Positions 7,836 to 57,936 of a stretch of 64,000 nucleotides of DNA are shown here, one piece after another. The first letter of the stretch is position 1. Each line of letters starts with the position of its first letter. A model generated the notes under the pieces. That model saw only the letters and a program-made list of their open reading frames with translations, ran no database searches and was not told the origin of the DNA. A program made the position numbers and the translations under genes. Origin of the DNA: the human T2T-CHM13v2.0 reference genome, Homo sapiens; assembly GCF_009914755.1 (NCBI RefSeq), contig NC_060932.1. One strand, given 5' to 3'.

Positions 7836-10065
7836 GGTCTTCATCCCCTCACAAAAAACAAAAAATAGAAAACTATTTATGAAGGATAATAGTCTTGTGA
7901 AGGCTCCAAGGTCCATCTAAGAACCCTCTGGCAGCACGGCAGAGAAAAAAATGGGAAAAACTGTAAAGAAGGATTGCTGATTACAGCAGCATATCTGAGA
8001 TATATGGAGGTGGTTATGAACAAAGAAGGGAGGAAGCTATCAGTATTAGCCACTCAGCATGTGCCATTGTCATCTCCAGTGGCCTCTGCAGAGGACAGAG
8101 GCGTCTTTTATCACTGAGGTAACCAACAGTCATCCCTGCCTCTGGCTCCATGGAAAATGAGATCCAAATGTGCCTTTCCTCCAAGAATCAGCTACTATTT
8201 TATAGCTCTGGGACTTGAGTGACTACCCCTCCCAACCCTGTGCACACCCCTGACCCTGGAGCTGTGGCTCTTGTCTGCACTGTGTGCACTCATACGTCAG
8301 TCTCAGAGACAGTGCAGCTATGTGTGAGTCTTCACACTGAACCTAGGAACTTTTGTTGCTCTACACCCACATGTGCTTGAGACGCTGACTCTCCATCTGC
8401 TCCACAAACACCCACTCTACTTCATACATCATTACTTATGTGGAAGCAGGGCTGTCTTCACCCTAGGCACCAGTGTGACTGCTGCCCTGTACCCTTTGGT
8501 CTCTTCATGTGTGTTTGTGATTCAGACCCTGGCTCTGTGGCTACTGCATGGTCACTGTGCATCAGACATCAGTGAGGGAATGCCCTCAAACCAGACCTTG
8601 TGCCAAATGAAATTGCCCGGGGCCATGACCTCCCTGGTGGGAGAAAAAGAGATTGAGGGCCCCAGGATCTTTCACCATTGAAAACCCAACAGTCTCACTG
8701 CCCCTGCAGATACCACAGCTTTAGCTGCTCAGGACCCCCTGGAATCTTTGTTAATGTTGACCTCAGCTGACAGAAATGCATGGAGGGTACACTGCTCTGT
8801 CTTCACCAAAGCTGGAACCATCCAACTCTACCCTTCTAACAGCCTTTTTCCCACCCATGGAGTAAGATTTTTTTTTTTAAATCAGTGAAAGCATTCTGTA
8901 AAGTTTCAAAATGGTGACTGCTCCATCGAATTTGAAGGTATCAATGCAATACAATAAGAAACATGAAAAACTGGGGAAACTTATCACCATTAAATGACAC
9001 AATAATTTTCTAATAACTGATCCCAGAGAAATAAAGATCTTCAAATTGCCTGAACAAGATTCAAAATAATTGTTCTAAGGATACTCAGCAAACTTCAAAA
9101 GAACACAGAGAAACAACATACATTTTTATAAAAAAAAATCAAATTATTGGGCTGAAGAACACAATGAATAACATTAAAATGCAATAGATAATATCAACAA
9201 CAGAATTCACAAAGCAAAAGAAAGATCTGTGAACTTGCAAACAGATTACTTGTATATATACAACTAGAGGAGAAATAAGAAAAAAGAATGAAAAGGAATG
9301 AAGAAACAAACACTATGGGATTTTGAAACAGCATCAAGAAAGCTAACATTCTCATTATAAGAGGTAAAAAAGGAGAAGAGAGACAAGGACAGAAAGCTTA
9401 TTTAAAATAATAATAACTGAAAACTTCCAAAATCTTAGGAAAGATATAAGTGTGCAGGTACAGGAAGCTCAAAATCCTTCAGTCAGGTTTAATCCAAAGA
9501 AGGTTATACCAAGCTCAAAATTCTTCAGTCAGGTTTAATTTGAACAAGACTACACCAAGACATATTATAATAAAACCGTCAATAAATATAATGACATTTT
9601 GAAAGAAGCAAGAGAAAAAAAAAGATTAAGTAACATAATCCAACATGTAAGTTGGATTTTCTCAGCAGATACTTTGTCAGTGAGGAGAGTGGAATGATAT
9701 CGTGCTGAAAGAAAAAAAAAAAGTCAATCAAGAATACTTTATCTGGCAAAGCTCTTCTTCGGAAATAAAGGAAAGATAAAACTTTCTAAGACAAACAAAA
9801 GCTCAAGGAGTTCATTGCCACTCAATCTATCTTACAACAAATGTCAATAGGAGTTCTTCCATGTAAACAAAAAGACTAATATGTAGTATGGAAATATATA
9901 AAAATATAACGTTCACTGGTAAAAGTAAGTATATAGTCAAATTCAGAATACCAAATACCGAAATGGCGATGTGTCTCTAGTATAAAGGTTAAAAGACAAA
10001 ACTACTGAAATAATTATTACTATAATAATTTGTTAAGGAACATGCAACATAAAAACTTATAAATT
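7836..10065 (+). mobile_element. Old L1 5'UTR and ORF1 remnant, sense
   Basis: A-rich ORF1-like sequence at ~8950-9870 (gatttctcagcaga, caagaatactttatctggcaaagct); contains a 46-bp tandem duplication at 9465-9556. Confidence 0.7.
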
Positions 10066-13000
10066 GAGATGGATCATCATGGCGGATGGGAGGCAGGACT
10101 AGATTACAGCTCCGGAAGGGACAGGGTGTGGTGGCTCACATTGTGAATTTTAGCTCCAAATCAACTGCAAGAACAAACCAACAATCCTGAGAGGACCCAC
10201 AGACCCTCTAAAGGAAGTGGACTGCTCCTGCAGGACCTGGGAGATACCCCAAATACCATGAGTGCCCCAACTGTGGAAGTGGGAAAGGGGGACCCTCCCT
10301 TCCTCCTCTCCTGAACACACACCCCCACTGGAGAAACTGAAGGTCTGTTTGAGGGAGAAGTTTCCGACCTTACCTGGAGCTGAGTCAATTTAGAGAGCTG
10401 GGCAAAATACAGGGGTAGATGAAGCAGGAGAAAGACCGTGGGAGTTCTCTGGGTCCCCAGGCAGACCATTCCTGCCTGGCACCACAGGGATCTATCTGGA
10501 GGACGGCCAGAGGAGCATGGGGTAAAACTTCACAGGGAGAAGGAAACAGACTCGGGGCTGTTAAATTGGGGCACGGTGGGAGTGAGACAGGCCCTTCAGT
10601 TTGCATGGGAGCTGACTGAGGCCTGTGATTGCCAGCTTTCCCCCACTTCCGTGACAACCTGCATGACTCAGCAGAGGCAGCCATAATCCTCCTAGGTACA
10701 CAACTCCAGTGACCTGGGAATCTCACCCCCACCCCACACAGCAGCCACAGCAGGACCCGACTAAGGAGAGTCTGAGCTCAGACATGCCTAGTCCTGCCCC
10801 CACCTGATGGTCTTCCTTACCCATTCTGGTCACTGAAGACAAAGGGCATATGCTCTTGGGAGTTCTAGGGCCCCACCCACCACTGGTCCCTCTCCATACT
10901 ACCACAGCTGATGCTCTCTGGAAAGGACCACCTCCTGGCAGGAGGCCAACCAGCACAAAAATAGGGCATTAAGCCACCAAAGCTAAGAACCCTCATGGAG
11001 TCCATTACGCCCTCCGCTGCCTCCACCAGAACAGTCGCTGGTATCCATGGCTGAGAGACCCCTAGACAGTTCACATTAGAAGACTCTGTGCAGACACCCA
11101 CCAGTACCAGCCTGGAGCTGGGTAGACTCGCTGGATGGCTAGACCCAGAAGAGAGACAACAATCACTGCAGTTCGGCTCATAGGAAGCCACATCCATAGG
11201 AAAAGGGGGAGAGTACTACATCAAGGGAACACCCCATGGGACAAAAGAATCTGAACAAAAGCCTTCAGCCCTAGACCTTCCCTCTGACAGAGGCTACTCA
11301 AATGAGAAGGAACCAGAAAACCAATCCTGGTAATATGACAAAACAAGGCTCTTTAACATCCCCCCAAAATCACACTAGTTCACGAGCAATGGATTAAAAC
11401 CAAGAAGAAACCCTTGATTTACCTGAAAAAGAAATCAGGAGGTTAGCTATTAAGCTAATCAGGGAGGCAATGGAGAAAGGAGAAGCCGAATGCAAGGAAA
11501 TCCAAAAAATGATACAAGAAGTGAAGGGAGAATTATTCAAGGAAATAGGTAGCTTAAAGAAAAAACATAAAAAATTCTGGGAATTTTGGACACACTGTTA
11601 GAAATGCAAAATCCTCTGGAAAGTCTTAGCAATAGAACTGAACAAGTAGAAGAAAGAAATTCAGAGCTCAAAGATATGGTCTTTGAAATAACCTAATCCA
11701 ACAAAGACAAGGGAAAAAGAATAAGAAAATATGAACAAAGCCTCCAAGAAGTCTGGGATTTTGTTAAATGATCAAGCCTAAGAATAATTGGGGCTCCTGA
11801 GTAAGAAGAGAATTCTAAAAGCTTGGAAAACATATTTGGGGGAATAATGGAGGAAAACTTCCCTGGCCTTGCTAGAGACCTAGACATCCAAATACAAGAA
11901 GCACAAGGAACACCTGGGAAATTCATTACAAAAAGATCATTGCCTAGGCACATTGTCATCAGGTTTTCCAAAGTTAAGATGAAGGAAAGAATCTTAAGAG
12001 CTGTGAGACAGAAGTACCAGGTAACCTAAAAAGGAAGACCTATCAGATTATCAGCAGATTTCTCAGCAGAAACCCTACAAGCTAGAAGGGACTGGGGCCC
12101 TATCTTCAGCTTCCTCAGACAAAACAATTATCAGCCAAGAATTTTGTATCCAGTGAAACTAAGCATCATATGTGAAGGAAAGATACAGTCTTTTCAGACA
12201 CACAAATGCTGAGAGAATTCGCCATTACCAAGCCACCACTACAAGAACTGCTAAAAGGAGCTCTAAATCTTGAAGCAGATCCTGGAAACATATCAAAACA
12301 AAAACTCTTTAAAGAATAAATCACACAGGACCTATAAAACAAAAATATAAGTTAAAAAGCAAAAACAAAAAACCCAAAGCACAGAGGCAACAAAGAGGAT
12401 GATGAATTCAATGGTACCTCACATTTCAATACTAACAGTGAATGTAAATGGCCTAAATGCTCCACTTAAAAGATACAGAACTGCAGAATGTATAAAAACT
12501 CATCAATCAACTATTTGCTGCCTTTAGGAGACTCACCTAACACATAAGAACTCATATACACTTAAAGTAAAGGGGTGGAAAAAGGCATTTCATGCAAATG
12601 GACACCAAAAGTGAGCAGGGGTAGCTATTCTTATATCAGACAAAACAAACTTTAAAGCAACAGCATTTAAAAGAGACAAAGAGGGACATTATATAATGGT
12701 AAAAGGCCTTGTCCAAGAGGAAAATATCACAATCCTAAACATATATGCACCTATCACTGGAGTTCCCAAATTTATAAAACAATTACTAATAGATCTAAGA
12801 AATGAGATAGACAACAACATAATAATAGTGGGGGACTTCAAGACTCCACTCACAGCACCAGACAGTCATCGAGACAGAAAGTCAACAAGCAATGGATTTA
12901 AACTATACCTTGGAACAAATGGACTTAACAGATATATACAGAACATTTCATCCAACAGCTGCAGAATATACATTCTATTTAACAATGCATGGAACTCACT

Positions 13001-13090
13001 CCAGGATAGACCCAAAGATAAGCCATAAAACGAGCCTCAATAAATTTAATAAAATTGAAATTATGTCAAGCACTCTCTCAGACCACATTT
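10066..13090 (+). mobile_element. L1PB-like LINE-1: 5'UTR, ORF1 and ORF2 endonuclease, 3'-truncated
   Basis: ORF1p fragment (ENFPGLARDLDIQIQEAQ..PRHIVIR) and ORF2p EN fragments (ITILNIYAP, IIVGDF, DLTDIYRTFHP); ends abruptly at ctctcagaccaca. Confidence 0.9.
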
Positions 13091-18500: not shown

Positions 18501-19569
18501 TTTATTTTTATGCATTCGAGTCATAAGTGCCATCTTGATGGAGGTTTGGGCCAGGGAGCTCAGTGGATATATTTAGGTCATGGAGCAGAAAAGAAAAAGC
18601 CTAAAAAATGCAACACAACCAATAAAGTCTTTGAGATGATTTGATAAGTAATTTAATAAGAATATAATCTTTTTAATAACCCAGACAATTCTTCTCAGAA
18701 ATAATGTGTAAAAACAAATTTTACTGGGTAGTTTTTAATGATAGTATAAATTATATATGATGAAACATTCTTAGTATTGTTTCTGTAAGTTAGTGTCCTT
18801 ATTCAGTGGGGAATCTATCTCAATTTCAACTGAGCCAGGCAGACAGTAGATACTATATTCCAAAAAGACTTGTTAGACACATCATCATGGTCAAGGACCA
18901 GCGAGAAGACTCAACATATTAAAAGTTTAAAAGGGTTAGATTGTTTGTATTTAGAAGAGGTTTATGATGCCATTTATCTGAAGAAGGTTATGCTGTGCTT
19001 TAATGTTTAACAGGAAATGATTTTCACATATGTCATCTCATTTTAAACTAAAAACAAGCTCTAATGTTACTTGCTTTTTCTAAAATAACATTTTTTAAAA
19101 AAGTATTATTGTACTCGTGTAAAAACTGCAACTTAAGGAAATTGAGATTGCCATAAATAATGGAGTTGGGAATATATCTTCAGCCCTCTGATTATTATAC
19201 TTTAAAGTTAGAAGAATTATGTCAGAATTTTTTATACGTTCCATAATATAATGATAGACAACTCTGGTACATTTTAACAAAAATTTCTATTATCTTCATT
19301 AAATACTTATGAGACTCTAATGATAGTTCATATTTTATGAAAACAATATATGCCATTATTATATGGAGTTAATTTTTTACTATGTAAAACTTTTGTATGT
19401 GCAATTAATACAAGATATTCTTTGAACTGTGTACTCAGGGATAGTCTTGTTAGATTTCATGGTGTTATAATGAAAAGTGGTTCTTTGATAATAATTATTT
19501 ATTTAATAGCCAATCTTATTTTATTGATATCCTCCACTTTTCTGCCCTGAATCATTAAAAAAATTATTT

Positions 19570-19909
19570 TAAAAAATATACTTTACATTTTAGTGCCATT
19601 TTAGGTTCACAGCAAAAATTGAGTGAAAAATACAAAAAAGTATTCATATACTCTTTATCCCCTACTCCCCCACAAAACCTGTACCACTGTGCATAACCTA
19701 CATCAGCGTGGTACATTTGTAATAATTGATGAGCTTATATTGACACATCATTATCACCCAAAATTCATAGTTTACATTATGGTTACCTGGAAAATCCCCA
19801 TACTCTTTGAGGCTAAATAACACATGGGTCAAAGAAAAATTCTCAAGAAAAAAATTAAAATATTTTGAACTAAGTGAAAATGAAAATATAACTTATCAAA
19901 ACTTGTGGA
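19570..19909. mobile_element. Old L1 pieces: antisense 3' end (19570-19785) and sense ORF2 fragment (19786-19909) that resumes at 29028-29076
   Basis: taggttcacagcaaaa..cacatcattatcacccaaa 3' motif; LNNTWVKE..YFELSENENITYQNLW ORF2p translation. Confidence 0.7.
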
Positions 19910-22900
19910 GGACACAGGGAGAAAAATGGCAGATAGGAGGCAGGACTTACTTGCAGCTCCCACTTGGATGGACAGCGTGTGGAGACTCACATTATGAACT
20001 TTTGCTGCAAGAACCACTGCAGGAACATAACAAGAAAACTTAAAGAATTCACAGACCCTTCAAAAGAAGCAGCTTGCCACTACAAACTTCGTGAAACACC
20101 CATAAAACTGTAAATGCCCAATATGTGAGTGGGGGAAAGTCTGGCTCTGGACACACATCCTTACTGGAGAACCTGAAAATCCAGATCACAGGAGAATAAT
20201 TTAACCTTACCTAGAGCTGAAATGAATTTAGAGAGCCGAGCAAACCATAAAAGTAGAAGAAGCAGCGGGAAGAGCCTTGTAGGCACTCCCAGTTCTCAGG
20301 GAAGCCCTGGGAAGCGATTTCTGATTTAATCTGACAGCAGTGCCTGGGGAGGACAGCCAGTGGAATTGGGGAAGGGCCACAAGGATAAGGAGACTTCCAG
20401 CTCAACCTTGTAAAAATTTTGACTTAGTGTGAATTTTCCTGGGCAGATGTGGTGGGGTGAACAAGAAGTGCAAATATGAGCACAGAAGCCATGGCAGGCA
20501 GGTAGAAGCAAGGCCTGAGAGCTCTGCTTGCTTTCTCAGTGGGGAGGCTTGTATCCTGGAGCAAGATCTCAGCCCTGTGCACCAGAGGCCTGGATATACA
20601 CTGGGCTGTGTTGGCTGCTTGGGGAGCATGGTGGGAGTGACACTGGCCTTACTGGCTGCATAGGAGCTGGGTGAGACCTGTCACTGCCGGCTTTCCCCCA
20701 CTTCCCTGGTGACCTGTATGAAGCAGCAGAGGCAGCCATGATCCCCCTTGGAAGGTAACTCCATTGACCTGAGAACCACCTCCCCCAATCCACCACAACG
20801 GCCATAGCAAGCCCTACCCAAGGAGAGTTTGAGCTCAGACATGCCCAACTCTGCCCTCATCTGATGGTCTTTCTCTACCTGCCCTGGTAGCTGAAGACAA
20901 AAATGACAGTAACTCATGGGAGCTCTAGGGCCCACCCATCACCTGAAAAACTTGAATACTTACCTGGGTGACCTTAGGGCAAGCTTGTATTCCCCCTATA
21001 CTACTACAGCTGATGCTCTCTTGAAAGTGCTGTCTCTTGGCTGGAGGCCAGCCAACTCAAGCCATTACAGCAGTTCATAACAGAACAACCCTGCTCCAAG
21101 GAAGGAAAAAACAACAGCTAATTCCACTGCCTACAACATTCTGGCTAACCAGAGGTCCTGAATCTGTCCACATAACAACTTCATTGCTAGCATAACCAGT
21201 CTTGAAGGAAACCAGTGCACTAAACAAGACTATAACCAAGGACTCTCACAGAATCTACTTCACTCCCCTGCTACTTCCACCAGAGCAGGTGCTAGTATCA
21301 ATGGCTGAGAGACCTAAAGATGGACCACATCACAGGATTCTTTGCAAACATTCCCAAGTACCAACTGAAAGTCCAGTAGCTCCACTGCGTGGCTAGACCC
21401 AGAAGAGCAGTAATGATCACTGTGGTCTGGCTCTCAGGAAGCCCTATCCCTAAGGGAAGGGATAGAGCACAACATCAAGGGATTACCCTGTGGGACAAAA
21501 GAGTCTGAACAGCAGCACTTGATTCCCAGATCTTTCCTCTAACATAGTCTACCCAAATGAGAAGGAACCAGAAAAACAATTCTGGTAATATGACAAAAAC
21601 ATGGTTCTATAACACTCCCAAAAGATCACACTAGCTTACCAGCAGTGGATCCAAACGAAGGAGAAATTTCTGAACTGTCAGAAAAAGAATTCAGAAATTT
21701 GATTATTAAGCTACTCAAGGAGGCACCAGAGAAAGGTGAAAAACTACCTAAAGAAATTTTTTAAAGTACAGAATATGGACAAAAAATCTCCAGAGAAATA
21801 GAGATCAGAAATAAAAGAAATCATAACTTATGGAAATAAAAGACTTAGAGAAATGCAAAATACACTGGAAAGTTTCAACAATAGAATTGAACAAGTAGAA
21901 GAATTTAAGAGCTTTAACACAAGGCTTTGGAATGAACCCAATCTGACACAGACAAAAAAAATAAAAAATAAAAAAATGAACAAAGCCTCCATGAAGTTTG
22001 GGATTATGTTAAATAACCAAACTAAGAATAATTTGTATTCCTGAGGAAGAATAGAAATCCTAAAGTTTGGAAAACTTATTTGAGGGAATAATCAAGGAGA
22101 ACTTCCCTGGCCTTGCTAGAGATCTCGACTTCCAAATACAAGAACCTTGAAGAATACCTGGAAAATTTATCACAAGAAGATCATCATCTAGGCACATGGT
22201 CATCAGGTTATTTAAAGTAAAGATGAAGGAAAGAAGCTTAAGAGCTGGGGGCAAAAGCACCAGGTAATGTATAAAGGAAAACCTATCAGATTAACAGCAG
22301 ATTTCTCAGCAGAAACTCTACGAGCTAGAAGGGATGGGGATCCTATCTTTAGTCTCTTTAAACAAAACAATTATCAGCTAGGAATTTTGTGTGCAGTGAA
22401 ACTAAGCTTCATAAATGAGGGAAAGATAAAGTCTTTTTCAGACTAACAAAAGCTGAGAAAATTTGCTACTACCAAACCAGCACTACAAAAACTGCTAAAA
22501 AGAGTTCTAAATCTTGAAACAAAACCTTGAAATACACCAAAATAGAACCTCTTTAAAGCATAAATTTCACAGGGTCTCTAAAAACAACAACACAATGAAA
22601 AAATAATCAAGATATTCAGGAAACAACCAGCATGATAAATAGAATAGTACCTCACATCTCAATACTAACATTGAAAATAAATGGCCTAAATTCTTCACTT
22701 AAAAGATTCAGAATGGCAGAATGTATAATAATTCACCAAACAGGTATCTGCTGTCTTTAAAAGACTCACCTAACACATAAGGATTCACATAAACTTAAGG
22801 TAAAGGGGTGGAAAAAGATATTACATGCAAATGGACATGTAAAGTGAGCAGGAGTAGCTATTCTTATATTAGACAAAACAGATTTTAAAGCAAAAACACT

Positions 22901-23594
22901 TAAAAAAGACAAAGAGGGGCATTATATAATGATAAAGGGACTAGTCCAATAGGAAAAAAATCACAATTGTAAATACATATACACCTAACACTAGAGCTCC
23001 CAAATTTATAAAACAATTCTTGATAGACGTAAGAAATGAGATAGATGGCAACACAATAATAGTGGGGATTTCAATACTTCGTGACAGCACCGGACAGGTC
23101 ATCAAGACAGAAGGTCAACAAAGAAACACAGTACTTAAATTATACCCTAGAACAAATAGACTTAACAGGTATTTACAGAACATTCTGCCCCAAAATGCAG
23201 AATATGTATTTCTATTCATCAGCACATGGAACATATTCCAAGACTGATCATATGATAGACCACAAAATAAGCCTCAATAAACTTAAGAAAATTGAAATCA
23301 TGTCAAGTACTCTCTCAGACCACAGCGGAATAAAATTGGAAATAACTCCAAAAGAAACCCTCAAAACCATCCAAATACATGGAAATTAAGTAGTCTGCTC
23401 CTGAATGATCTTTTAGTAAACAGTGAAATCAATAGAAACTAAAAACTTCTTTGAACTGAATGATAATAGTGACACAACCCATCCAATCCTCTGAGATACA
23501 GCAAAAGCCGTGCTAAAAGGAAAGTTTATAGCATTAAATGCCTACATCGAAAAGTCTGAAAGAGAAAAAATAGACAACCTAAGGTCATTGTCAT

Positions 23595-25798
23595 TGTATT
23601 AGTCTGCTTTCATGTTGCTCATAGACATACCTGAGACTGGGCAATTTACAAAAGAAAGAGGTTTAATGAACTTAAAATTCCATGTGGTTGGGGAGGCCTC
23701 ACAATCATGGCAGAAGGTGAAAGGCATGTCTCACATGGAGGCAGACAGGAGAAGAGAGCTTGTGCAGGGAAACTCCCCTTTTTAAAACCATCAGATCTTG
23801 TGAGACTTATTCACTGTCATGAGAACAGCACAGGAAAGATCTGCCCTCATGGTTCAATTACCTTCCAACACATGGGAATTCAAGATGAGATTTGGGTGGG
23901 GACAGAGCCTAACCATATCATTCAGCCCAAATCTCATGTCCTCACATTTCAAAACCAATCATGCCTTCCTAACAGTCCCCCAAAGTCTTAACTCATTTCA
24001 ACATAAACTCAAAAGTCTATAATCCAAAATCTTATCCAAGACAAGGCAAGTCCCTTCCACCTATAAAATCAGAAGCAAGTTAGTTACTTCCTAGATACAA
24101 TAGGGGTATAGGTATTGATAAATACAGCCATTCCAAATGGGAGAAATTGGCCAAAACAAAGGGGCTACAGGTCCCATGCAAGTCCAAAATCCAGCAGGGC
24201 AGTGAAATCTTAAAGCTCCAAAATGATCTCCTTTGACTCCATGTCTCACATCCAGGTCATGCTGATGCAAGAGGTGGGCTCCCACAGCCTTGAGCAGCTC
24301 TGCACCTGTGACTTTGCAGGGTATAGCCTCCTGGCTGCTTTCACAGGCTGGCACTGAATGTCTGCAGCTTTTCCAGGCAAACAGTGCAAGCTGTAGGTGG
24401 ATCTACCATTCTGGGGTCTGGAGGATGGTGGCCCTCTTCTCATGACTACACTAGGCAGTGCCCCAGTAGGGACTCTGTGTGGGGGCTCCAACCTCACATT
24501 TCCCTTCCACACTGCTCTAGCAGAGGTTCTCCATGAGGGCTCCGCTCCTGCAGCAAACTTCTGCCTGGACACTCATACATCCTTTGAAATCTAGGCAGAG
24601 GTTCCCAAATCTTGACTCTTGGCTTCTGTGCATCCACAGCCTCAACAACACATGGAAGCTGCCAAGGCTTGGGCTTCCACCCTCTGAAGCCACAGCCTGA
24701 GCTGTACCTTGGTCCCTTTCAGTCACAGCTTGAGTGGCTGGATGCAGGGCACCAAGTCCCTAAACTGCACACAGCAGAGGGACCGTGGGCCTGGCCCACA
24801 AAGTCATTTTTTCCCTCCTAAACCTCCAGGCCTCTGACTGGAGAGGCTGCCACCAAGGCCTCTGACATGCCCTGGAGACAATTTCCCCATTGTCTTGGTG
24901 ATTAACATTTGGGTCCCCATTACTCATGTAAGTTTCTGTAGCTGGCTTGAATTTCTTTTCAGCAAGTGGGATTTTCTTTTCTATTGTGCTATCAGGCTGC
25001 AAGTTTTCCAAACTTTTGTGATCTGTTTCCCTTTTAAAACTGAATGCCTTTAATAGCACCCAAGTCACCTCTTGAATGCTTTGCTGCTTAGAAATTTCTT
25101 CCACCAGATACTCTAAATCATCTCTCTCAAGTTCAAAATTCCACAAATCTCTAGGGCATGGACAAAATGCTGCCAGTCTCTGCTAAAACATAGTAAGAGC
25201 CACATTTGCTCCAGTTCCCAACAAGTTCCTGATCTCCATCTGAGACCACCTCAGCCTGGATTGTGTTGTTCATATCGTTATCAGCATTTTGGTCCAAACC
25301 ATTTGACAAGCCTCTAGGATGTTCCAAACTTTCCCACATGTTTCTATTTTCTTCTGAGCCCTCCAAACTGTTCCAACCTCTGCCTGTTACCCAGTTCCAA
25401 AGTCACTTTCACATTTTTGGGTTTCTTTTCAGCAGCACCCCACTCTACTGGTACCAATTTACTGTATTAGTTTTTTTCATGCTGCTGATAAAGACATACC
25501 TGAGACTGGGCAATTTGCAAAAGAAAGAAGTTTAATGGACTTACAGTTCCACATGGCTGGGAAAGCCTCACAATCATGGTGGAAGGTGAAAGATACATAT
25601 TAGCAGACAAGAGAAGAGAGCTTGTGCAGTGAATCTCCCTTTTAGAAAACCATCAGATCTCATGAGATTTATTCCCTATCACAGGAAGAGCACAGGAAAG
25701 ACCTGCCTCCATGATTCAATTACCTCCCACTGGTTACCTCTCACAATATGTGGGAATTCAGAATGAAATTTGGCTGGGAACACAGCCAAACCATAACA
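23595..25798 (-). mobile_element. Complete THE1A-like MaLR element (LTR 23595-23920, internal region, LTR 25463-25798) nested in the L1
   Basis: Two direct LTRs (tgtattag...ccatatca / ccataaca), ~1.54-kb internal region, 5-bp TSD gtcat (23590-23594 / 25799-25803). Confidence 0.9.
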
Positions 25799-27749
25799 GT
25801 CATACCTCAAGGAACTAGAGAAACAGGAACAAACTAAACCCAAATCCAGCAGAAGAAAATAAGTAACAAAGATCAGAGCAGAAGTAAATAAAATGGATAC
25901 AATCAAAGGAAAAATAGATGAAACAAAAGCTGGTTCTTTGAAAAGATAAACAAAACGGATAGACCATTAGTGATATTAACCAAGAAAAGAAGAGAAAGTT
26001 CTAAATAAGCTCAATTAGAAATGAAATGGGAGATATTACAACCTATAGCATAGAAACACAAAAGATCATTGAAGGCTACTATGAACACCTTTATGAACAC
26101 AAAATAGATAAACTAGGGGAGATAAATAAATTCCTGGAAATATACAACCCTCCTAAATAAAATCAGGAAGAAATAGAAACTCTGAACAGACTAATAACAA
26201 GCAGTGAGATTGAAATGGTAATAAAAACCATTACCAATGAAAAAAAGTCCAGAATTGGATGGATTCATACCTGAATTCTGTCAGAGATTAATAAAAGAAC
26301 TGGTACCAATCCTACTGAAAATATTTCAAAAGATAGAGAAAGAGGGAATTTTTCCTAAATTGTTCTATGAAACCAATATCACCCTAATATCAAAACCAGG
26401 AAACGAAAGAACAAAAAAGGAAAACTACAGACCAATATCTCTGGTAAACAAAAATGCAAATTTTCTCAACTAAATACTAGCTAACTGAATGCAACAGCAT
26501 ATCAAAAAGATATTCCACCATGATCAAGTTGGTATCATACCAGAGATGCAAGTTTAGCATATACAACTAAATAAATGTAATACAACACATAAGCAGAATT
26601 TAAAACAAAAATCAGATGATCATTTCAATAGACACAGAAAAAGCATTTGACAAAATCCAACATCGCTTTATGATTAAAACCCTCAGAAAAATTGGCATAG
26701 AAGGGACATACCTTAAGGTAATAAAGGCTGTATATGCCAAAGCCGCAGACAACATTGTACTGAATAGGGAAAAGTTGAAAGCATTTTCCCTGAGAACAGG
26801 AAGAAGATAAGGATGCCCATTTTCATCACTTCTATTCAACATAGTACTGGAGGTCCTAGCCAGAGCAATCAAACAAGAGAAAGAAAGAAAGAAAGAGTAT
26901 TCAAATTGATGATGAGGAAGTCAAACTGTCACTGCTTGCCAATGATATGATCATATACCTTGGAAACCCTAAAGACTCATCAAAAAAGCTCCGAGATTAG
27001 ATAAATGAATTCAGTAAAGTTTCAGGATACAAAAGTAATGTACACAAATCAGTAGCATTGCTATACACCAACAGTGGCCAAGCTGAGAATCAAATCAAGA
27101 ATTCAACCCCTTTTATGGTAGGTGCAACAAAACCCCCCAATATACTTAGGAATATACCTAACAAAGGAAAACTGTGAAACATTGCTGAAAGAAATTATAG
27201 ATGACACAAACAAATGAAAACACATACCATGCTCATGGATGGGTAGAATCAATATTGTGGAAATGACAATACTGTCAAAAGCAATATATAAATTCAATAT
27301 AATTCCCATCAAAATACCATCATCATTCTTCACAGAACTGGAAAAAACGATCCTAAAATTCATATGGAACCAAAAAAGAGCTGCATGGGCAAAGAAAGGC
27401 TAAGCAAAAAAACAAAAACAAAACAAAATAAGAAAACCCAAAAAACAAATCTGGAAGCATCACATTACCTGACTTCAAACTATGCTACCAGGCTATAATC
27501 ACCAGAACAGCATGGTACCACTATAAAAATAGACACATAGACCAATGGAACAGAATAGAGCTCCCAGAAATAAAGCCAAGTATTTACAGTCAACTGATCT
27601 TTGACAAAGCAAACAAAAACATAAAGTGGGGAAAGGACACCCTATTCGACAAATGGTGGTGGGATAACTGGCAAGCCACATGTAGAAAAATGAAACTGGA
27701 TCCTCATCTCTCACCTTATACAAATATCAACTCAAGATGTGTCAAAGAC

Positions 27750-27940
27750 CAGGAAGGGGAACATCACACACCGGGGCCTGTTGTGGGGTGTGGGGAGTGG
27801 GGAGGGATAGCATTAGGATATATACCTAGTGTTAAATGACGAGTTAATGGGTGTAGCACACCAACATGGCACATGTATACATATGTAACAAACCTGCACG
27901 TTGTGCACATGTATCCTAAAACTTAAAGTATAATAAAAAA
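27750..27940 (+). mobile_element. 5'-truncated young L1PA 3' end nested in the L1PB
   Basis: L1PA 3'UTR (ggggaacatcacacaccggggcctg...acttaaagtataat + A-tail); 16-bp TSD aagatgtgtc(a/g)aagac at 27734-27749 / 27941-27956. Confidence 0.92.
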
Positions 27941-28556
27941 AAGATGTGTCGAAGACTTAAATATAACACCTGAAGCCATAAAAATCCTAGAAGATAACAT
28001 CAGAAAAACTCTTCTAGATATTGTCTTAGGTAAAGAGTTCATGAACAAGAACCCAAAAGCAAATGCAATAAAAACAAAGATAAATAGATGGGACTTAATT
28101 AAACTAAAAAGCTTCTGCATAGCAAAAATATAATCAGCAGAGTAAACAGACAACCCACAGTGGCTAAGAAAATGTGGTATATAAATACCATGGAATCCTA
28201 CTCAGCCTTAAAAAGGAACAAAATAATGACATTTTACAGCAACCTGGATGGAGTTGGAGCCATTATTCTAAGTGAAGTAACTCAGGAATGGAAAACGTAA
28301 CATCATATGTTCTCACTCACAAGTGGGAGCTAATCTCTGAAGATGCAAAGGCATGAGAATGATACAATAGACTTTGGGGACTTGGGGGGAAGGGTGGGAG
28401 GCAGTAAGGAATGAAAGGCTACATATTGGGTACAGTGTGCACTGCTAGGATGATGGCTGCACCAACATCTCAGAAATCACTACTAAAAATCTTATTCGTG
28501 TAACCAAACACCACCTGTTCCCCAAAATCTATTGAAATAAAAATTAAAAAAAGAAG

Positions 28557-28845
28557 AAGTAGTTAAGGTTAAATGAAACTGCAGCCTTGTTCCAATCTGA
28601 CTTGCATCCTTATAAAAAATAGATTTGGATACACAACGAGACACCAGGGGCTTGTGCATGTAGAGGAAAGGCCATGTGAGGACATAGGGAGAAGGCAAGT
28701 CTAGAAGAGAGGCCTCAGGAGAAACCAACCCTGCAGACACCTTGATCTTGGACTTCCAGCCTCTAGAACTGTTAGAAAATAAGTCACTGTTGTTGAGGCC
28801 ACTTAAGCTATAGTACTTTGTGGTGTCAGCCTAAGTAGACAATAT
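28557..28845 (+). mobile_element. 5'-truncated MLT1A-like LTR
   Basis: ggccatgtgaggacata..gaggcctcaggagaaaccaaccctg..gatcttggacttccagcctctagaactg motifs; starts mid-element, directly after the L1 A-tail. Confidence 0.8.
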
Positions 28846-29166
28846 AATATCCTTATTTAGATGTTTGCTAAAACTCTCTTATTATTTAAACACTGGGCTT
28901 TTTGTTATTGTTTTAATTATTCTGCTTTAGAACTACATGAAGAAACATAGTAATAATAATATCAATTTAAAATGCAAATAAATCACAAATGTCTTTTCTT
29001 GCAAAAAAAATAAAACACCCTTCTGGAATGCAGCAAAAGCAGTACTTAGAGGAAAATTTGTATCATTGAATGGCTATGCTTTTATATCATATAATTATTT
29101 ACTGTAATGTTATGATGACTGTACCCCTCTGACATGGGAACTTTTTTTGTATGTGTTTTTCTTTAG

Positions 29167-29250
29167 GTTTGTGTAAATCGTGAATGTGTAGAATCAAGGA
29201 TAATTAAGGCTTCAGCACATGTTTGTTCACAACAGTGTTCTGGACATGGA
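29167..29250 (+). CDS. ADAM32: ADAM32 coding exon, end of Cys-rich and start of EGF-like domain (VCVNRECVESRIIKASAHVCSQQCSGHG)
   Basis: tttctttag acceptor, gtaagt donor at 29251; 84 nt, phase 0-0; C.N..C and CSGHG motifs. Confidence 0.95.
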
Positions 29251-37776: not shown

Positions 37777-39218
37777 TTATAATTAACTAATCAATTAATT
37801 TTTTTTATTTCAATAGGTTTTTGAGGAATAGGTGGATTTTGGTAACATGGATAAGTTCTTTAGTGGTGATTTCTGAGATTTTGGTGCAGCCATCACCCAA
37901 GCAGTGTATACTGTACCCAATGTGTAGTCTTTTATACCTCACCTACTCCTATCCTTCCCCTCAATACCCCAAAGTCCATTGTATCATTCTTATGCCTTTG
38001 TGTCCTCATAGCTTAGCTCCCACTTATGAGTGAGAACATATGATATTTGGTTTTCCATTCTTCAAGTGAAGAGTTACTTCACTTAGAATAATGGTCTCAA
38101 ACTCCATCCAGGTTGCTGCGAATGCTATTATTTTGTTCCTTTTAATGGCTGAGTAGTATTCCATGGTGTATATATACATCACACTTTCTTTATTCACTCA
38201 CTGATTGATGGGCATTTGGGCTGGTTCCATATTTTTGCAGTTGCAAATTGTGCTGCTATAAACATTTGTGTTAGCGTCTTTTTATGTAATGACTTTTATA
38301 TAATGACTTCCTCTGGGTAGATTTCCAATAGTGGGATTGCTGGATCAAATGGTAGATCTACTTTTGGTTCTTCAAGAAATTGCCATACTGTTTTTCGTAG
38401 TGGCTGTGCTAGTTTACATTCCCACCAACAACGTAAAAGTGCTCCCCTTTAAGCACATCCATGCCAACATCTATTATTTTTTGATTTTTAAATTATGACC
38501 ATTCTTGCAGGAGTAAGGTGGTATTGCATTGTGGTTTTGATTTACATTTCCCTGATCATTAGTGATGTTGAGCATTTTTTCATATGTTTGTTGGCCATTT
38601 GTATATCTTCTTTTGAGAGTTACCTATTCATGTCCTTAGCCCATGTTTTGATGGAATTCCTTTTTTTCTTGCTGATTTGTTTGGGTTCCTTATAGATTCT
38701 GGATATTAGTTCTTTGTCAGATGCATAGTTTGTGAAGATTTCCTCCCACTCTGTGGGTTATCTGTTTACTCTGCTGATTATATCTTTTGCTTCGCAGAAG
38801 CTTTTAAATTTAATTAAGTCCCTTCTATTTATCTTTGTTTTTATTGCATTTGTTTTTGGGTTCTTGCTCATGAACGCTTTGCCTAAGCCAATGTCTAGAA
38901 TAGTTTCCTGATGTTATATTCTAGAATTTTTATGGTTTCAGGTCTTAAATTTAAGTCTTTGATCCCTCTTGAGTTGATGTTTGTATAAGGTGAGAGATGA
39001 GGATCTGGTTTAATTCTTCTACATATGGCTTGCCAGTTATCCCAGTGCCATTTGTTGAATAGGGTGTCCTTTCCCCATGTTATGTTTTTGTTTGCTTTGT
39101 TGAAGATCAGTTGGCTGTACGTACTTGGCTTTATTTCTGGATTCCCTATTCCATTCCATTGGTCTCTGTGTCTATTTTTATATCAGTACCATGCTGTTTT
39201 GGTGACTTTAGCCTTATT
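37777..39218 (-). mobile_element. 5'-truncated L1PB-like element, antisense
   Basis: T-rich tail at left, then 3'UTR and the end of ORF2; enclosed together with the 5S fragment by a 16-bp TSD at 37761-37776 / 39256-39271. Confidence 0.9.
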
Positions 39219-39258
39219 GTCTATGGCCATACCAGCCTGAATGTGCCCGATCTTGTCT
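39219..39258 (+). pseudogene. 5S rRNA pseudogene fragment (nt 1-40)
   Basis: gtctatggccataccagcctgaatgtgcccgatcttgtct versus human 5S GTCTACGGCCATACCACCCTGAACGCGCCCGATCTCGTCT: 35/40, with four of five mismatches being CpG>TpG. Confidence 0.9.
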
Positions 39259-47185: not shown

Positions 47186-50100
47186 TGTTTTTCTTTTTCA
47201 AATTTTAATTTAGGTTCAGGGGGTACATGTTCATGTTTGTTACAGGGTTAAATTGTGTGTCACTGGGGTTTGGTATATAAATGATTTCATCCCCCAGGTA
47301 GTGAGCATAATACTTGTAACTGATCTGTGTAAGGTTTCAGTTTCTTCATGGTTCAATCATGGTAGGTTGTGTGTTTCTAGGTATTCATCTATTTCTTCTA
47401 GGTTTTCTAGTTTGTGTGTATAGAGGTGTTTGTAATAGTTTCTGAAGATTTTTAAAAATTTCTGTGGGGTCAGAGGTAATGTCACTTTGGTCATTTCTTA
47501 GTGTGGTTATTTGGATCATCTCTTTTTAAATTAATCTAGCTAGTGGTCTATCAATCTTATTTGTTCCTTAAAAAAGAAACTTTCGGTTTTATTGATCTTT
47601 TTCCTGGATTATTGTGTCTCAATTTCATTCAGTTCAGTTTGGATTTTGCTATTTATTTTCTTCTAGCTTTGGGGTTGGTTTGCTCTTGTTTTTCTAGGTC
47701 TTCTAGGTGCGATGTTAGGTTGTTAACCTGAGATCTTTCTAACTTTTTGATGTATGCATTTAGCACTATAAACTTTCCTCTTAACACTACTTTAGCTGTG
47801 TCCCAGAGTTTCTGTTATGTTATATGTTTGTTTATATTAGTTTCAAATAATTTTTTTATTTCTGCCTTAATTTCATTATTTACCAAAAAGTCATTCAGGA
47901 GCAGGTTGTTTAATTTCTACGTGATTGTATGGTTTTGAAATTTCTTGGCATTGATTTCTGTTTTTATTGCACTGTGGTCTGAGAGTGTGATTGGTATGAT
48001 TGGTATGTGCTGATGTGAAGAATTTACATTGTGGTGTTGTTGGGTGGAGTATTTTGTAGATGTCTGTTAGGTCTACTTGGTCAAGTGCCGCGTTAAGTCC
48101 CAAATACCTTTGTTAGTTTTCTGCCTCAATGATCTGCATAACACTTTCAGGGGGTGTTGAAGTCTCCCACTGAAATAGTCTCCCACACTATTATTGTGTG
48201 GTTCTCAACATCTCTTCGTAGGTCTCTAGGAACTTGTTTTATGAATCCAGGTGTTACACTGTTGGGCCCATATATATTTAGGATCATTAAGTCTTCTTGT
48301 TGAATTGAACCCTTTATCATTATGTAATGCTCTTCTTTGTCCTTTTTTATTGTTTTTGGTTTAAAGTTTGTTTTATCTTAAATAAGAAAGCAACTTCTGC
48401 TCTTTTTTATACTTTGTTTGCTTGATGGATCTTTCTCCTTCCCTTTACTTTGAGCTTATGGGTGTCATTGCAGGTGAGATGGTCTTTTGAAGACAGCATG
48501 TAGTTGGATCTTGCTTCTTTATACACTTTGCCACTCTGTGTCTTTAAGTGGGGCATTTATCCCATTTACATTCAACGTTAATATTGTTATGTGCAGATTT
48601 GATCCTGTCATCATGTGTTAGCTGGTTGTTATGTAGATTTGATTATATATTTGCTTTATAGTGTCAGGGGGCTATGCGTGTAAGTATAATTTGTGGTGGC
48701 AGGTAGCTGGTTATTAAGTAGATTTGATTATATATTTGCTTTATAGTGTCAGGGCTAAGCATGTAAGTATGATTTTGTGGTGGCAGGTAGCTGGTTGTTA
48801 TATAGATTTGATTAGATATTTGCTTAATAGTGTTGGGGGGCTACGCATGTAAGTATGATTTTGTGGTGGCAGGTAATGATCTTCCCTTTCCATGTTTTGC
48901 TTTCCCTTAAGGACCTGTTATAAGGTAGGTGTGGTGGTAGCAAATTCCCTTAGCATTGACTTGTTTGAAAAATATTTTATTTTTCCTCTGCTTATGAAGC
49001 TTAGTTTGGCTGGATATACAGTTTTTGGTTGAAATTTCCTTTCTTTAAGGATGCTGAATATAGGTCCCCAATCTCTTCAGACTTGTAAGGTTTCTGCAGA
49101 AAATTCTGCTGCTAGCCTGTTGGGGTTCCCTTTGTAGGTGACTTGCCCCTTCTCCCAAGCTGCCTTTAAGATTTATTCTTTCACATTGCCTTTGGAGAAT
49201 CTGATGACTATGTGTCTTGGGGATGGTCATCTTGTATGGTATCTCACAGAGGTTCCCTGAATATCCTGAATTTGCATGTCAACATCTCTAGTGAGGTTGG
49301 GAAAATTTTTGTGGAAGTATTCTCCAATATGTTTTCCAATTTGCTTGCTTTCTCTTCATCTGTTTCAGGAATGCCAGCGAGTCCCAGGTTTGGTCTCTAC
49401 GTAATCACATATTGCTCTGATATTTTGTTCATTTAAAAAATTATTTTTTCTTTTTTCTAGTCTGCCTGTGTTGTTTCAAAGAAATGGTCTTCAAGCTCTG
49501 AGATTCTTTCCTCAGCATGGTCTATTCTGTTATAATGCTTTCAGTTGCTTTATGAAATTCCTGTAGTGAATTTCTCATTCCCAGAAGTTCAGTTTATTTT
49601 TCTCTTAAAATGGCTATGCCATCTTTTAACTCTTCGACCATGTTGCTGTGTTCCTTGGCTTGAGTTTCGACCTTCTGTATGTCGATGAGCTTCCTTGCTA
49701 TCCAGAATTAGTATTATATGTCTGTCATTATAGCCATTTCAGTCTGGTTAAGAACAATAGCTGGAGAGCTATTGTGGTTGTTTGGTGTTAAAAAGACACT
49801 GTGTCTTTTTGAGTTGTCAGAGTTCTTGCATTGGTTCTTTCTCATTTGTGTGGGCTGATGTTCCCTTAATCTTTGAAATTGCTGTCTTTTGTATGGAGCT
49901 TTCTGCTTTTACATTCTCTGATACCTTAAGGGTTTCACTGTGGTATAAGTTAGGCTTAGGCAATTGGCTTCATTTCTGGATGCTTTCAGGGGGCCAAGGC
50001 TCAAATTAGCATTCCTGGGGTACGTGCTCTATCCCTGGGGGGTTGGGACCTGGCCTGTTTCTTTGTTCTCTGTCCCCTTAAGGTTAAACCCCTGTTGCAC

Positions 50101-53249: not shown

Positions 53250-53954
53250 GTTGTTTAATTTTTCCTTTCTTAAAGAAAAAATATTTTTAAAAATTTGCCA
53301 TGCATGGTGTTCAAGAATTTGTGGGAGTGTGAACTGGGGTCCTGAAACTGCACTTTTATGACACTTGGGAGTCCTACTTCTCTTCTTGATGCATTTTTCT
53401 CTCTATTTATGCATATTTCCCTCTTGCATTCCAAAAGCCACTGGTCAGAAATTTTATTATTCCTGTTTCATGGGTGAGATGGCTCCTTCTGGCTCCTGGT
53501 TTAGTTAAAGAGTTCACTTATAGCATCTCTGCATCCGAAGGCCTGAGGCTTCAGCTCCTTCTAAGGCAGTGCTACTAAATCTCTGGCCTCAGAGTTAGTC
53601 TTTTCTTTAAAAATGAATAAAAAACCAGAAGTTGGATTATGAAGGTCAGAATCAGACATTCAAGGTCAAATCTAGATTCTGTGTTTAGAAGGGATCAGAA
53701 AAAGCAAATTTGGGTGTTTTTGATACTCTCCTCATTGCAGGATTTGAAATGTGCCCTTCTTATGGATGAGGTATATGGGTAAATAAAAATGTTATTTATT
53801 TGCATCTGTGTTCATTGACCTTTGGACAATATTTTATTTTTTAATAATTAGTCTTATAAGGAGATAATACTGATTATAAAATGGACTGATTTTAATTCAT
53901 GAAGTTGGCAAGTTTTCTAAGTACTAACATGAGACATTTTCAATTTTTTTTTAG

Positions 53955-53993
53955 ATCTAAATCGGAAGGTAGCACACAGACATATGCCAGCCA
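53955..53993 (+). CDS. ADAM32: ADAM32 cytoplasmic repeat exon 1 (SKSEGSTQTYASQ)
   Basis: tactaac branch point, poly-T tract, ag acceptor; gtaagt donor; 39 nt, phase 2-2. Confidence 0.92.
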
Positions 53994-54301
53994 GTAAGTA
54001 GTTTAGAAGGTGTTTTTAAGATACATGTTGAAAATTAAGAGTTAATTGATAATTCACAATTTATTTCCAATTTTTTTTGAACATCAATTGGTAAAGCAAT
54101 GCACTGAAATCCAGACTGCTAATATATAGTCTAATTTAGTTTCTAATAAATTAGTCCTTTCTTCATTTAATAAATGTTTACTGGAAGTCTCTTCTGAGGA
54201 AACAAGGAATAAAATAGCTGATTCTAAAATGAGATAGGACATGTATAATTAGTAAAGAAAAAGAATGTATAGGGCCTAGAAGTTACCCAGCTTGTGTTAT
54301 A

Positions 54302-54487
54302 GAGGCACGTGCTGTATAATAATGTTTTGGTAAATGATAAACCACATGTATGATGGTGGTTCCATAAGATTATAATGAAGGTGAAAAATTCCTGTAGCCT
54401 AGTGATGTTGTAGCCATCACAACATCAGAGAGCAATGCATTACTCACTGGTTTGTGGTGATGCTGGTGTAAGCAAACCTACTGCACA
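54302..54487. mobile_element. Tigger3 terminal fragment (~185 bp), also copied at ~57750-57936
   Basis: ggtggttccataagattataatg..cctagtgatgttgtagccatc..tttgtggtgatgctggtgtaa.caaacctactg. Confidence 0.8.
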
Positions 54488-57002: not shown

Positions 57003-57936
57003 GTCTTTTTTTAAACAATAAATAAAAAGCCAAAAGTTGGGGTATGAAGGTGAGAATCATGCAAAGTCAAACCTATGTTCTATGTTTAGAAATAGCTAAT
57101 CTGTGTTTTTTCTGAACGGATCTATATTCTATGTTCAGAAAAAGCAAATCTGTGTTTTTTGGATACTCTCCTCATTGCAGGATTTGAAATGTGCCCTTCT
57201 TGTGGATGAGGTATATGGGTAGATGAAAATGTTATTTATTTGCATCTATGTTCAGTGACCTTTGGACATCATTTTATTTATTAGTAATTAGTCTTTTAAA
57301 GAGATAATACTAATTATAAAATGGCCTGATTTTCATTCATGAAGTTGGCAAGTTTTCTTAGTACTAACTTGAGACATTGCTTTCAATTTTTTTTTAGATC
57401 CAGCTCAGAAGGCAGCACTCAGACATATGCCAGCCAGTAAGTAGGTTAGAAGAGGTTTTTAAGATACATGTTGAAAATTAAGAATTTATTGATAATTCAC
57501 AATTTATTTCTAAATATTTTTGAACAATGTCAATTGGTAAAGCAATGCACTAAAATCCAGACTGCTAATATACAGTTGAATTTAGTTTCTAATAAATTAG
57601 TCATTTCTTTATTTAATAAATGTTTACTGGAGGTCTCTTTTGAGGAAACAAGGAATAAAATAGCTGATTCTAAAATGAGATAGGACATGTATAATTAGTA
57701 AAGAAAAAGAATGTATAGGGCCTAGAAGTTACCCAGCTGGTGTTACAGAGAGAGCCATGTGCTTCATAACAATGTTTTGGTAAATGAGAAACCACATGTA
57801 TGATGGTGGTTCCATAAGATTATAATGAAGGTGAAAATTCCTACAGCCTAGTGATGTTGTAGCCATCACAACATCAGAGAGCAATGCATTACTCACTTGT
57901 TTGTGGTGATGCTGGTGTAAACAAACCTACTGTGCT
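57003..57936 (+). repeat. Local duplication copy 2 (contains repeat exon 2)
   Basis: Aligns to 53598-54487 and ends at the same Tigger3 position (aaacctactg). Confidence 0.95.
57398..57436 (+). CDS. ADAM32: ADAM32 cytoplasmic repeat exon 2 (SSSEGSTQTYASQ)
   Basis: tactaac branch point, poly-T tract, ag acceptor; gtaagt donor; 39 nt, phase 2-2; 33/39 identical to 53955-53993. Confidence 0.92.

What the first reader, a model, noticed from the sequence alone, without database searches (positions are those of the whole stretch)
19898..29076. Ancient L1PB insertion with an apparent ~450-bp 3' transduction next to an ADAM32 exon
Seen: an older L1 ORF2 fragment breaks at ...atcaaaacttgtgga (19909) and resumes seamlessly at atgcagcaaaagcagtacttagaggaaaattt (29028), not at the L1PB A-tail (28556). 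Between 28557 and 29015 lie an MLT1A LTR that begins mid-element exactly at the L1 tail, then ~130 bp of AT-rich sequence, AATAAA (28977-28982) and, 20 nt later, a second A-run (29003-29015). A degenerate TSD follows (cttctgga 29020-29027 versus cttgtgga 19902-19909). Known: read-through of the weak L1 polyA signal mobilises 3' flanking DNA. Inference: the source L1PB sat inside an MLT1A elsewhere and carried its flank here, landing ~150 bp upstream of the 29167 exon.
Basis: partly seen in the sequence, partly recalled or inferred. Interest (0 to 1): 0.72.

Follow-up and report, generated by a model that had tools for sequence, protein, structure and literature searches.

The report
Ancient LINE-1 transduction with vanished parent
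A dead LINE-1 jumping element in an ADAM32 intron carries about 450 extra bases that match one spot on chromosome 13 and end in an added A-tail; they were likely carried along by a parent element that is not at that spot today, an old example of a known process.

Summary
The unique part of the tail (28840-29003) has one other match in the genome, G000:C13:26893443-26893606 (90%). The match stops at a CA 20 nt after AATAAA. Chr8 continues there with an A-run, chr13 with a U/GU-rich stretch, so the copy went chr13 to chr8 through a polyadenylated RNA.

The chr13 LTR is whole apart from an Alu that the chr8 copy lacks, with no L1 at the break or within about 19 kb upstream. The donor lies 6.5 kb behind a POLR1D coding exon (name recalled), same strand.

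Lineage-specific divergence is the same for the L1PB (46/632) and the carried LTR piece (15/208), which fits a single event.

Best reading (0.75): a 'parentless' 3' transduction from an L1PB allele that never fixed or was lost, the usual state in dog genomes (17/18; 24/27). Rivals: a separate retrocopy landing in the L1 tail (0.13), or a template-switch chimera with a POLR1D read-through RNA (0.09).

Known mechanism, new old example, no function shown. Other primate genomes, not available here, would decide it. Interest 0.27.

The parts
19784..19909 (+). Left half of an older L1 ORF2 fragment (the target); may extend to 19917
   Evidence: Aligns to in-window L1 ORF2 copies and translates to ...YQNLW; genome relatives 77-90%
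19898..19917 (+). 5' copy of the target-site duplication (12 nt to 19909, or about 20 nt to 19917), starting at TC|AAAA
19917..28555 (+). 5'-complete L1PB-type LINE-1 (name recalled), sense to ADAM32, decayed: longest stop-free stretch 135 codons in 21500-28200; about 550-nt internal deletion at 28160; own AATAAA 28536-28541 and short A-rich tail
   Evidence: 5' end shared with 29 fetched copies; 3' end 84-87% to the best 39 copies
23595..25798 (+). THE1-type MaLR element (two LTRs and interior; name recalled) inserted later into the L1PB, 5-bp TSD at 23590-23594 and 25799-25803
   Evidence: LTR pair differs at 50 of 322 sites
27750..27940 (+). Short 3' end of a younger L1 (L1PA-type, recalled) inserted into the L1PB, about 16-bp TSD
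   Evidence: sequence and repeat D9
28556..28845 (+). 3' three quarters of an MLT1-type LTR, copied from the chr13 LTR (break at G000:C13:26892830|26892831, T|AAAG); lacks the Alu found in the chr13 copy
   Evidence: chr13 is the best of 39 non-self hits (86%, next 72-81%) and reciprocal best
28846..29003 (+). Unique AT-rich flank copied from chr13, with AATAAA (28977-28982) and cleavage at CA (29002-29003)
   Evidence: single other match G000:C13:26893443-26893606, 90%; 12 of 154 sites differ
29003..29015 (+). Second poly(A) tail, absent from the donor
   Evidence: the donor continues with a U/GU-rich stretch
29012..29033 (+). 3' copy of the target-site duplication (to 29027, or to 29033), with a 4-nt insertion
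29028..29076 (+). Right half of the older L1 ORF2 fragment
   Evidence: repeat D4; translates to AAKAVLRGKF
29167..29250 (+). ADAM32 coding exon, 139 nt behind 29027; its pyrimidine tract and AG lie outside the insertion
   Evidence: annotation supplied with the finding

Best explanation
A full-length L1PB and about 450 bases that match one locus on chromosome 13 sit together between one target-site duplication in an ADAM32 intron, and were likely inserted as one read-through RNA from a parent L1PB that would have sat in the chr13 LTR but is not there today. Shown: the donor, its orientation, the end of the match at a CA 20 nt after AATAAA, the A-run present only on chr8, the empty donor, and equal divergence of L1 and carried piece. 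Inferred: (1) a parent L1PB inserted at T|AAAG in the chr13 MLT1 LTR; (2) transcription ran past the L1's own signal and the LTR's signal and was cleaved at the next AATAAA/CA/GU-rich site; (3) ORF2p nicked TC|AAAA in an old L1 ORF2 fragment on chr8 and copied the whole RNA; (4) the parent allele never fixed (or, less likely, was precisely deleted), and an Alu later entered the chr13 LTR; (5) a THE1, a younger L1 end and a 550-nt deletion then altered the chr8 copy. The date is roughly 40-50 million years (subfamily age recalled, not measured).
For: One donor in the genome: 2 candidates, 2 scored, self plus chr13; reciprocal best hit, ending at the same base. Canonical 3' end at the donor and an A-run only on chr8. 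One TSD encloses the L1, the extra piece and the second tail, and starts at an endonuclease-type site. The donor break falls at T|AAAG, where an L1 could have inserted. Equal age: chr8-specific changes 46/632 = 7.3% in the L1PB UTRs against 15/208 = 7.2% in the LTR piece, Fisher p = 1.0; the THE1 LTR pair, 15.5% in total, fits the same clock. The Alu at the donor is missing from the copy, so the copy likely predates it. Empty donors are the rule in dogs: 17 of 18 (PMC7980453, passages) and 24 of 27 (PMC13141329, passages). Partnered transductions occur in 466 of 5,311 (8.8%) polymorphic human L1s (PMC12350158, passages).
Against: No parent: blastn of the whole window against C13:26,874,001-26,899,000 finds no L1 upstream of the donor, only a 5'-truncated L1PB-type 3' end 400 nt downstream, which cannot be the source. 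No sibling with the same junction: 1 match, self; none among the 40 scored hits (3,683 and 5,158 candidates, so lower bounds); no second L1 with the same 5' junction. The donor lies 6.5 kb behind a coding exon on the same strand, so a host RNA could end there without any L1. The T|AAAG break is equally what A-rich microhomology would give. The first 57-59 nt after the L1 tail are more diverged from chr13 (13/59) than the rest (37/386), p = 0.013 post hoc, and one other LTR copy of 19 matches them as well (44/57). The age test is wide (95% CI 4.1-11.6% for the LTR piece). An 8-nt A-rich repeat is shared by the two tails and could be a second TSD. The dog figures concern still-polymorphic elements.
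Confidence: 0.75

Rival explanations
1. Two steps: the L1PB inserted first, and soon after a 5'-truncated retrocopy of an RNA ending at the chr13 site (a POLR1D read-through transcript, or an orphan transduction) landed in its A-rich tail.
For: Needs no parent in the chr13 LTR. The donor is on the sense strand 6.5 kb behind a POLR1D-type exon. An 8-nt A-rich repeat on both sides of the piece could be its TSD. Nested insertions favour A-rich stretches (PMC2836564, passages on Alu). The 4-nt insertion in the 3' TSD copy shows some disturbance at that end.
Against: No sign of a younger age: 7.2% against 7.3%. The 8-nt repeat begins at the L1's own poly(A) signal and resembles the tails of other L1PB copies. 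It needs a retrocopy to hit a target about 20 bp wide, whereas partnered transductions are common. Use of this site by POLR1D was not found in print (listing, no POLR1D hit among the 12 shown).
Confidence: 0.13
2. One-step chimera: reverse transcription began on the poly(A) of a host RNA ending at the chr13 site, copied 450 nt, then switched to (or the RNA was ligated to) the 3' end of a full-length L1PB RNA, so no L1 was ever at chr13.
For: Explains the empty donor, the single TSD and the equal age at once. The junction is A-rich on both sides. L1 chimeras with other RNAs by template switch or ligation are documented (PMC13174262, abstract and sections 9-10).
Against: In the sections read, the documented chimeras have the foreign RNA 5' of a usually truncated L1, the reverse of this order. 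A lost parent is commonplace. No evidence here that the chr13 site is a used poly(A) site of an abundant germline RNA.
Confidence: 0.09
3. DNA-level duplication (repair capture or small segmental duplication) of chr13 sequence next to the L1 tail, with chance A-runs.
For: The TSD is degenerate and needs one or two indels.
Against: The homology ends exactly at CA 20 nt after AATAAA and is followed by an A-run that the donor lacks, which is the mark of a polyadenylated RNA.
Confidence: 0.03

Closest known systems
Partnered L1 3' transduction (Moran 1999, Goodier 2000, Pickeral 2000, seen as reference-list titles only; catalogues PMC12350158 and PMC9311842, passages read)
   Same: L1, A-rich tail, non-L1 flank, second AATAAA 10-40 nt before cleavage, second poly(A), one TSD at an endonuclease-type site; donor on another chromosome; length within the reported 8-997 nt.
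   Different: No L1 next to the donor; far older than the L1HS/L1PA cases in those catalogues; the transcript would have passed two signals (L1 and LTR).
'Parentless' 3' transductions of dog LINE-1 (PMC7980453, PMC13141329; passages read)
   Same: The carried sequence maps to one locus that has no adjacent L1.
   Different: In dogs the parent is thought still to segregate; here the element is decayed and old, so the parent would be extinct and cannot be recovered from humans.
LINE-1 chimeric insertions with other RNAs (PMC13174262; abstract, sections 9-10, supplement term search)
   Same: One insertion made of L1 and sequence from a distant locus.
   Different: Those have the foreign RNA at the 5' side of L1; here it is 3' of a 5'-complete L1.
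Processed retrocopies and orphan transductions (PMC12350158, passages)
   Same: Poly(A) added at a genomic AATAAA, 5' end mid-sequence.
   Different: Here it abuts an L1 tail inside the L1's TSD and has no clear TSD of its own.

Membership tests
Partnered L1 3' transduction | Non-L1 sequence directly 3' of an L1 tail, followed by a second poly(A) | tested here: met
Partnered L1 3' transduction | The sequence maps to another locus, same orientation, and ends 10-40 nt after a poly(A) signal with no genomic A-run | tested here: met
   C13:26893606; AATAAA, 20 nt, CA, GU-rich
Partnered L1 3' transduction | One TSD encloses L1 plus carried sequence and starts at an endonuclease-type site | tested here: met
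   12-20 nt, degenerate; 9 of 15,000 and 41 of 19,982 random ends score as well
Partnered L1 3' transduction | A source L1 sits directly upstream of the donor in this assembly | tested here: not met
   intact LTR, no L1 within about 19 kb upstream; filed therefore as the parentless form, not as a traced parent-offspring pair
Parentless 3' transduction | Donor found, no adjacent L1 | tested here: met
Parentless 3' transduction | A parent allele existed at the donor (seen in another haplotype or species, or shown by siblings) | not testable with these tools
   no other primate genomes held; sibling searches found none
Parentless 3' transduction | L1 and carried piece arrived together | tested here: inconclusive
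   equal lineage-specific divergence but wide intervals; presence/absence across species not testable
L1 chimeric insertion (U6/L1 type) | Foreign RNA lies 5' of the L1 | tested here: not met
   the foreign piece is 3' of the L1 tail (definition)
Independent retrocopy or orphan transduction | Own TSD around the 450 nt | tested here: inconclusive
   only an 8-nt A-rich repeat that overlaps the L1's own signal
L1PB1 / MLT1A-B / THE1 subfamily labels | Diagnostic positions against Dfam or Repbase models | not testable with these tools
   labels are recalled; no repeat library on hand

The most novel reading that the evidence does not exclude
No L1 ever sat at the chr13 site: the insertion is a reverse-order chimera in which ORF2p primed on a POLR1D read-through RNA and switched to a full-length L1PB RNA at its tail. 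Part of what is called parentless transduction would then be capture of host RNA 3' ends in trans, testable as an excess of donors on the sense strand behind germline-expressed genes.
Probability: 0.09. Interest if true: 0.55.

Novelty: new member of a known kind. Interest (0 to 1): 0.27.

Why it matters
It is a clean fossil of L1 3' transduction from early simian times, with the donor traced. It points to an active L1PB allele on chr13 that left no other trace in this genome, which pipelines that require a source L1 would miss. It also moved a poly(A) signal, on the sense strand, to 185 nt upstream of an ADAM32 exon. Whether that shortens any transcript is untested, and the GU-rich downstream element was not carried along. 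The mechanism is textbook, so the value is as an example and as a test case for telling lost parents from trans capture. I did not find this locus in print: searches (15 of 161 papers listed, none about it by title or abstract start; 2 papers, unrelated), and no ADAM32 or POLR1D row in six supplements of PMC13174262 (mmc7.pdf unreadable; that catalogue covers 5' partners). Szak 2003, Pickeral 2000 and Xing 2006 were not held, and the T2T repeat paper's transduction tables were not looked at, so a listing there is possible.

Tried and rejected
1. Long-TSD source. The 16 nt at the 5' junction (19908-19923) match the carried LTR (28678-28693) at 15 of 16. None of 29 other L1PB 5' junctions scored as high (best 12 against 13), nor more than 34 of 20,000 shuffles or 37 of 40,000 random genomic 22-mers. 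A first control, 277 of 30,000, drew from the region itself and was redone. This suggested a parent with a 140-bp TSD and 5' read-in. Demoted to about 3%: the same bases are the natural continuation of the old L1 ORF2 target (TG 26, TA 17, CA 9, CG 1, other 7 of 60), so an ordinary 20-nt TSD with a CpG decayed both ways, plus the L1's own start, explains them. The chr13 donor itself matches at only 12 of 16.
2. Parent further upstream with splicing or deletion: no L1 in C13:26,874,001-26,893,200.
3. Downstream L1PB end at C13:26894019-26894351 as the parent: wrong side and 5'-truncated.
4. Siblings: searches found none; the one extra hit (L077) is not an L1 start.
5. A long pattern across the empty target gave 0 matches; the shorter one was informative.
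6. The random control for the 20-nt TSD used an end one base off (121 of 10,000) and was redone.
7. Rows dropped before counts: L061 and L062 (apparent duplicates of L060; 17 of 19 3' copies used) and L010 (apparent duplicate of L008; 28 of 29 5' copies used); only columns with a clear majority were counted. The copies are the best hits, so they are biased towards similarity.
8. Literature searches (0 papers) gave nothing specific on long germline TSDs or POLR1D poly(A) sites. Precise deletion is rare: 0.003% per lineage in whales (PMC10531181, passages). PMC4862182 (passages) added nothing.
Full report
Observation. The sequence is as described. An older L1 ORF2 fragment runs 19784-19909 and resumes at 29028-29076. 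Both halves align in register with two other L1 ORF2 copies of the window and translate as ...ENENITYQNLW and AAKAVLRGKF. Between them lie a 5'-complete L1PB-type element (about 19917-28555), part of an MLT1-type LTR (28556-28845), 131 nt of AT-rich DNA, AATAAA (28977-28982), 20 nt, and an A-run (29003-29015). The L1PB carries a THE1-type element (23595-25798), a short younger L1 end (27750-27940) and a deletion of about 550 nt at 28160. Family names are recalled; no repeat library was available.

Target-site duplication. Extended with one 4-nt gap it is 12 nt (19898-19909 vs 29012-29027), reached by 9 of 15,000 random ends. It may be about 20 nt (19898-19917 vs 29012-29033; 41 of 19,982). The reason is that 19910-19917 read as the continuation of the old ORF2, and the dinucleotide that differs between the two copies (CA left, TG right) varies like a decayed CpG among 60 genomic relatives (TG 26, TA 17, CA 9, CG 1, other 7; reversed control 3). 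In 29 other L1PB copies the shared sequence begins a few bases before the ATGG at about 19926, which fits a start near 19917-19918. Either way the duplication starts at TC|AAAA, an endonuclease-type site (established L1 biology).

Donor. A search of the window's own assembly with 28840-29010 gave two candidates, both scored: self and G000:C13:26893443-26893606, 90% over query 1-164. The LTR piece also finds chr13 first (86%; the other 38 non-self hits 72-81%; 40 of 3,683 candidates scored). The chr13 stretch finds chr8 first, ending at the same base (40 of 5,158 scored). At the donor, AATAAA is followed after 20 nt by CA and then a U/GU-rich stretch, with no A-run. The chr8 copy stops at that CA and continues in A. 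This is the mark of a cleaved, polyadenylated RNA and fixes the direction chr13 to chr8.

The donor is empty. The chr13 LTR is complete (L002:796-1506) apart from an Alu that the chr8 copy lacks. The chr8 copy begins about 90 nt into it, at T|AAAG (C13:26892830|31). A blastn of the whole window, which holds the entire L1PB and other L1s, against C13:26,874,001-26,899,000 found only Alus upstream of the donor, and a 5'-truncated L1PB-type end 400 nt downstream. The LTR's own AATAAA is intact on chr13 (L002:1439) and reads AATAAG on chr8. The donor lies 49 kb behind an RNA_pol_L_2 coding exon and 6.5 kb behind an exon whose peptide I recognise from recall as the end of POLR1D isoform 2 (L003:3267-3563), all on the same strand.

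Age. Donor and copy differ at 50 of 445 sites (37 of 386 without the first piece). Polarised against 18 other LTR copies, 15 of 208 sites changed on chr8, 7 on chr13, 1 on both, and 9 are derived in both, which ties the two copies together. Private changes in the L1PB are 24 of 351 (3' UTR, 17 copies) and 22 of 281 (5' UTR, 28 copies). So 7.2% against 7.3%, Fisher p = 1.0, with intervals of 4.1-11.6% and 5.4-9.6%. The THE1 LTR pair differs at 50 of 322 sites, about 7.8% each, which fits the same local clock. One oddity stands against a tidy picture: the first 57-59 nt behind the L1 tail differ from chr13 at 13 of 59 sites (p = 0.013 against the rest, post hoc), and one of 19 other copies matches them equally (44 of 57).

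Siblings. None were found. The 3' junction pattern occurs once, self. The 5' junction pattern occurs at self and at one unrelated place. No close third copy appears among the scored hits.

A lead that was dropped. The 5' junction 16-mer matches the carried LTR at 15 of 16, above 29 of 29 controls and with p about 0.001-0.002. It suggested a parent with a 140-bp TSD, which would also ease precise loss. The longer ordinary TSD explains the same bases more simply, so I give that reading about 3%.

Mechanism. Best reading (0.75): one read-through RNA from a parent L1PB in the chr13 LTR, cleaved at the site 450 nt downstream and inserted by target-primed reverse transcription on chr8; the parent never fixed. 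The donor, cleavage site, added tail, enclosing TSD, empty donor and equal age are shown. The parent and its loss are inferred. Empty donors are common: 17 of 18 and 24 of 27 dog transductions map to loci without an adjacent L1, ascribed to polymorphic parents (PMC7980453; PMC13141329; passages). Of 5,311 polymorphic human L1s, 466 carry a transduction (PMC12350158, passages), with lengths of 8-997 nt and signals 10-40 nt before cleavage (PMC9311842, passages). Precise deletion of a fixed element is rare (PMC10531181, passages). Rivals: a later retrocopy of a host RNA landing in the L1 tail (0.13; an 8-nt A-rich repeat could be its TSD; A-rich nesting hotspots in PMC2836564, passages); a one-step template-switch chimera (0.09; documented chimeras have the opposite order, PMC13174262, abstract and sections 9-10); a DNA-level duplication (0.03). 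These weights are my judgement.

Comparison and novelty. It works like a partnered L1 3' transduction and meets the structural tests. It fails the test of a source L1 at the donor, so it is filed with the parentless form. I found no mention of the locus in searches (listings only) or in six supplements of PMC13174262 (a seventh was unreadable). Szak 2003, Pickeral 2000 and Xing 2006 were not held and I rely on them for nothing; other supplements that I did not open could list it. No effect on ADAM32 is shown. Verdict: real, a new and old member of a known kind, interest 0.27. Primate orthologues of both loci would decide among the readings.

Noticed in passing
window 19562-19917 and 29028-29100: The older host L1 looks 5'-inverted: an antisense L1 3' UTR-like piece (19565-19783, family recalled) abuts the sense ORF2 piece. 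An 8-nt AT-rich repeat at 19562-19569 and 29093-29100 could be its TSD; weak.
   Followed up: partly
window 53598-54483, 57003-57932, 58597-59032: Local duplication (87% over about 900 bp; 64% to the third) covering three 39-nt ADAM32 coding exons (53955, 57398, 58914): tandem exon duplication near the 3' end of the gene.
   Followed up: no
window 10079-13087: A second L1PB-like element with a 5' end, 67-79% similar to the one studied, overlapping the annotated enhancer 9992-11191.
   Followed up: no
window 28160-28161: About 550 nt of the L1PB's ORF2 end are missing relative to the in-window copy at 37790-39220.
   Followed up: partly
window 28556-28845 versus L002: The chr8 copy has about twice as many derived changes as the chr13 donor (15 against 7 of 208 sites; intervals overlap), a hint of a faster local mutation rate.
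   Followed up: partly
window about 28779-28784 versus L002:1439-1444: The LTR's own poly(A) signal is AATAAA on chr13 but AATAAG on chr8; either the source allele had lost it or it changed after landing in the ADAM32 intron.
   Followed up: no
L002 about 1980-2435 (C13:26894019-26894351 matched): 5'-truncated L1PB-type 3' end with a CA microsatellite and a TSD of about 11 bp, 400 nt downstream of the donor poly(A) site.
   Followed up: yes
window 48619-48875: Tandem repeat of about 85-nt units at about 90% identity.
   Followed up: no
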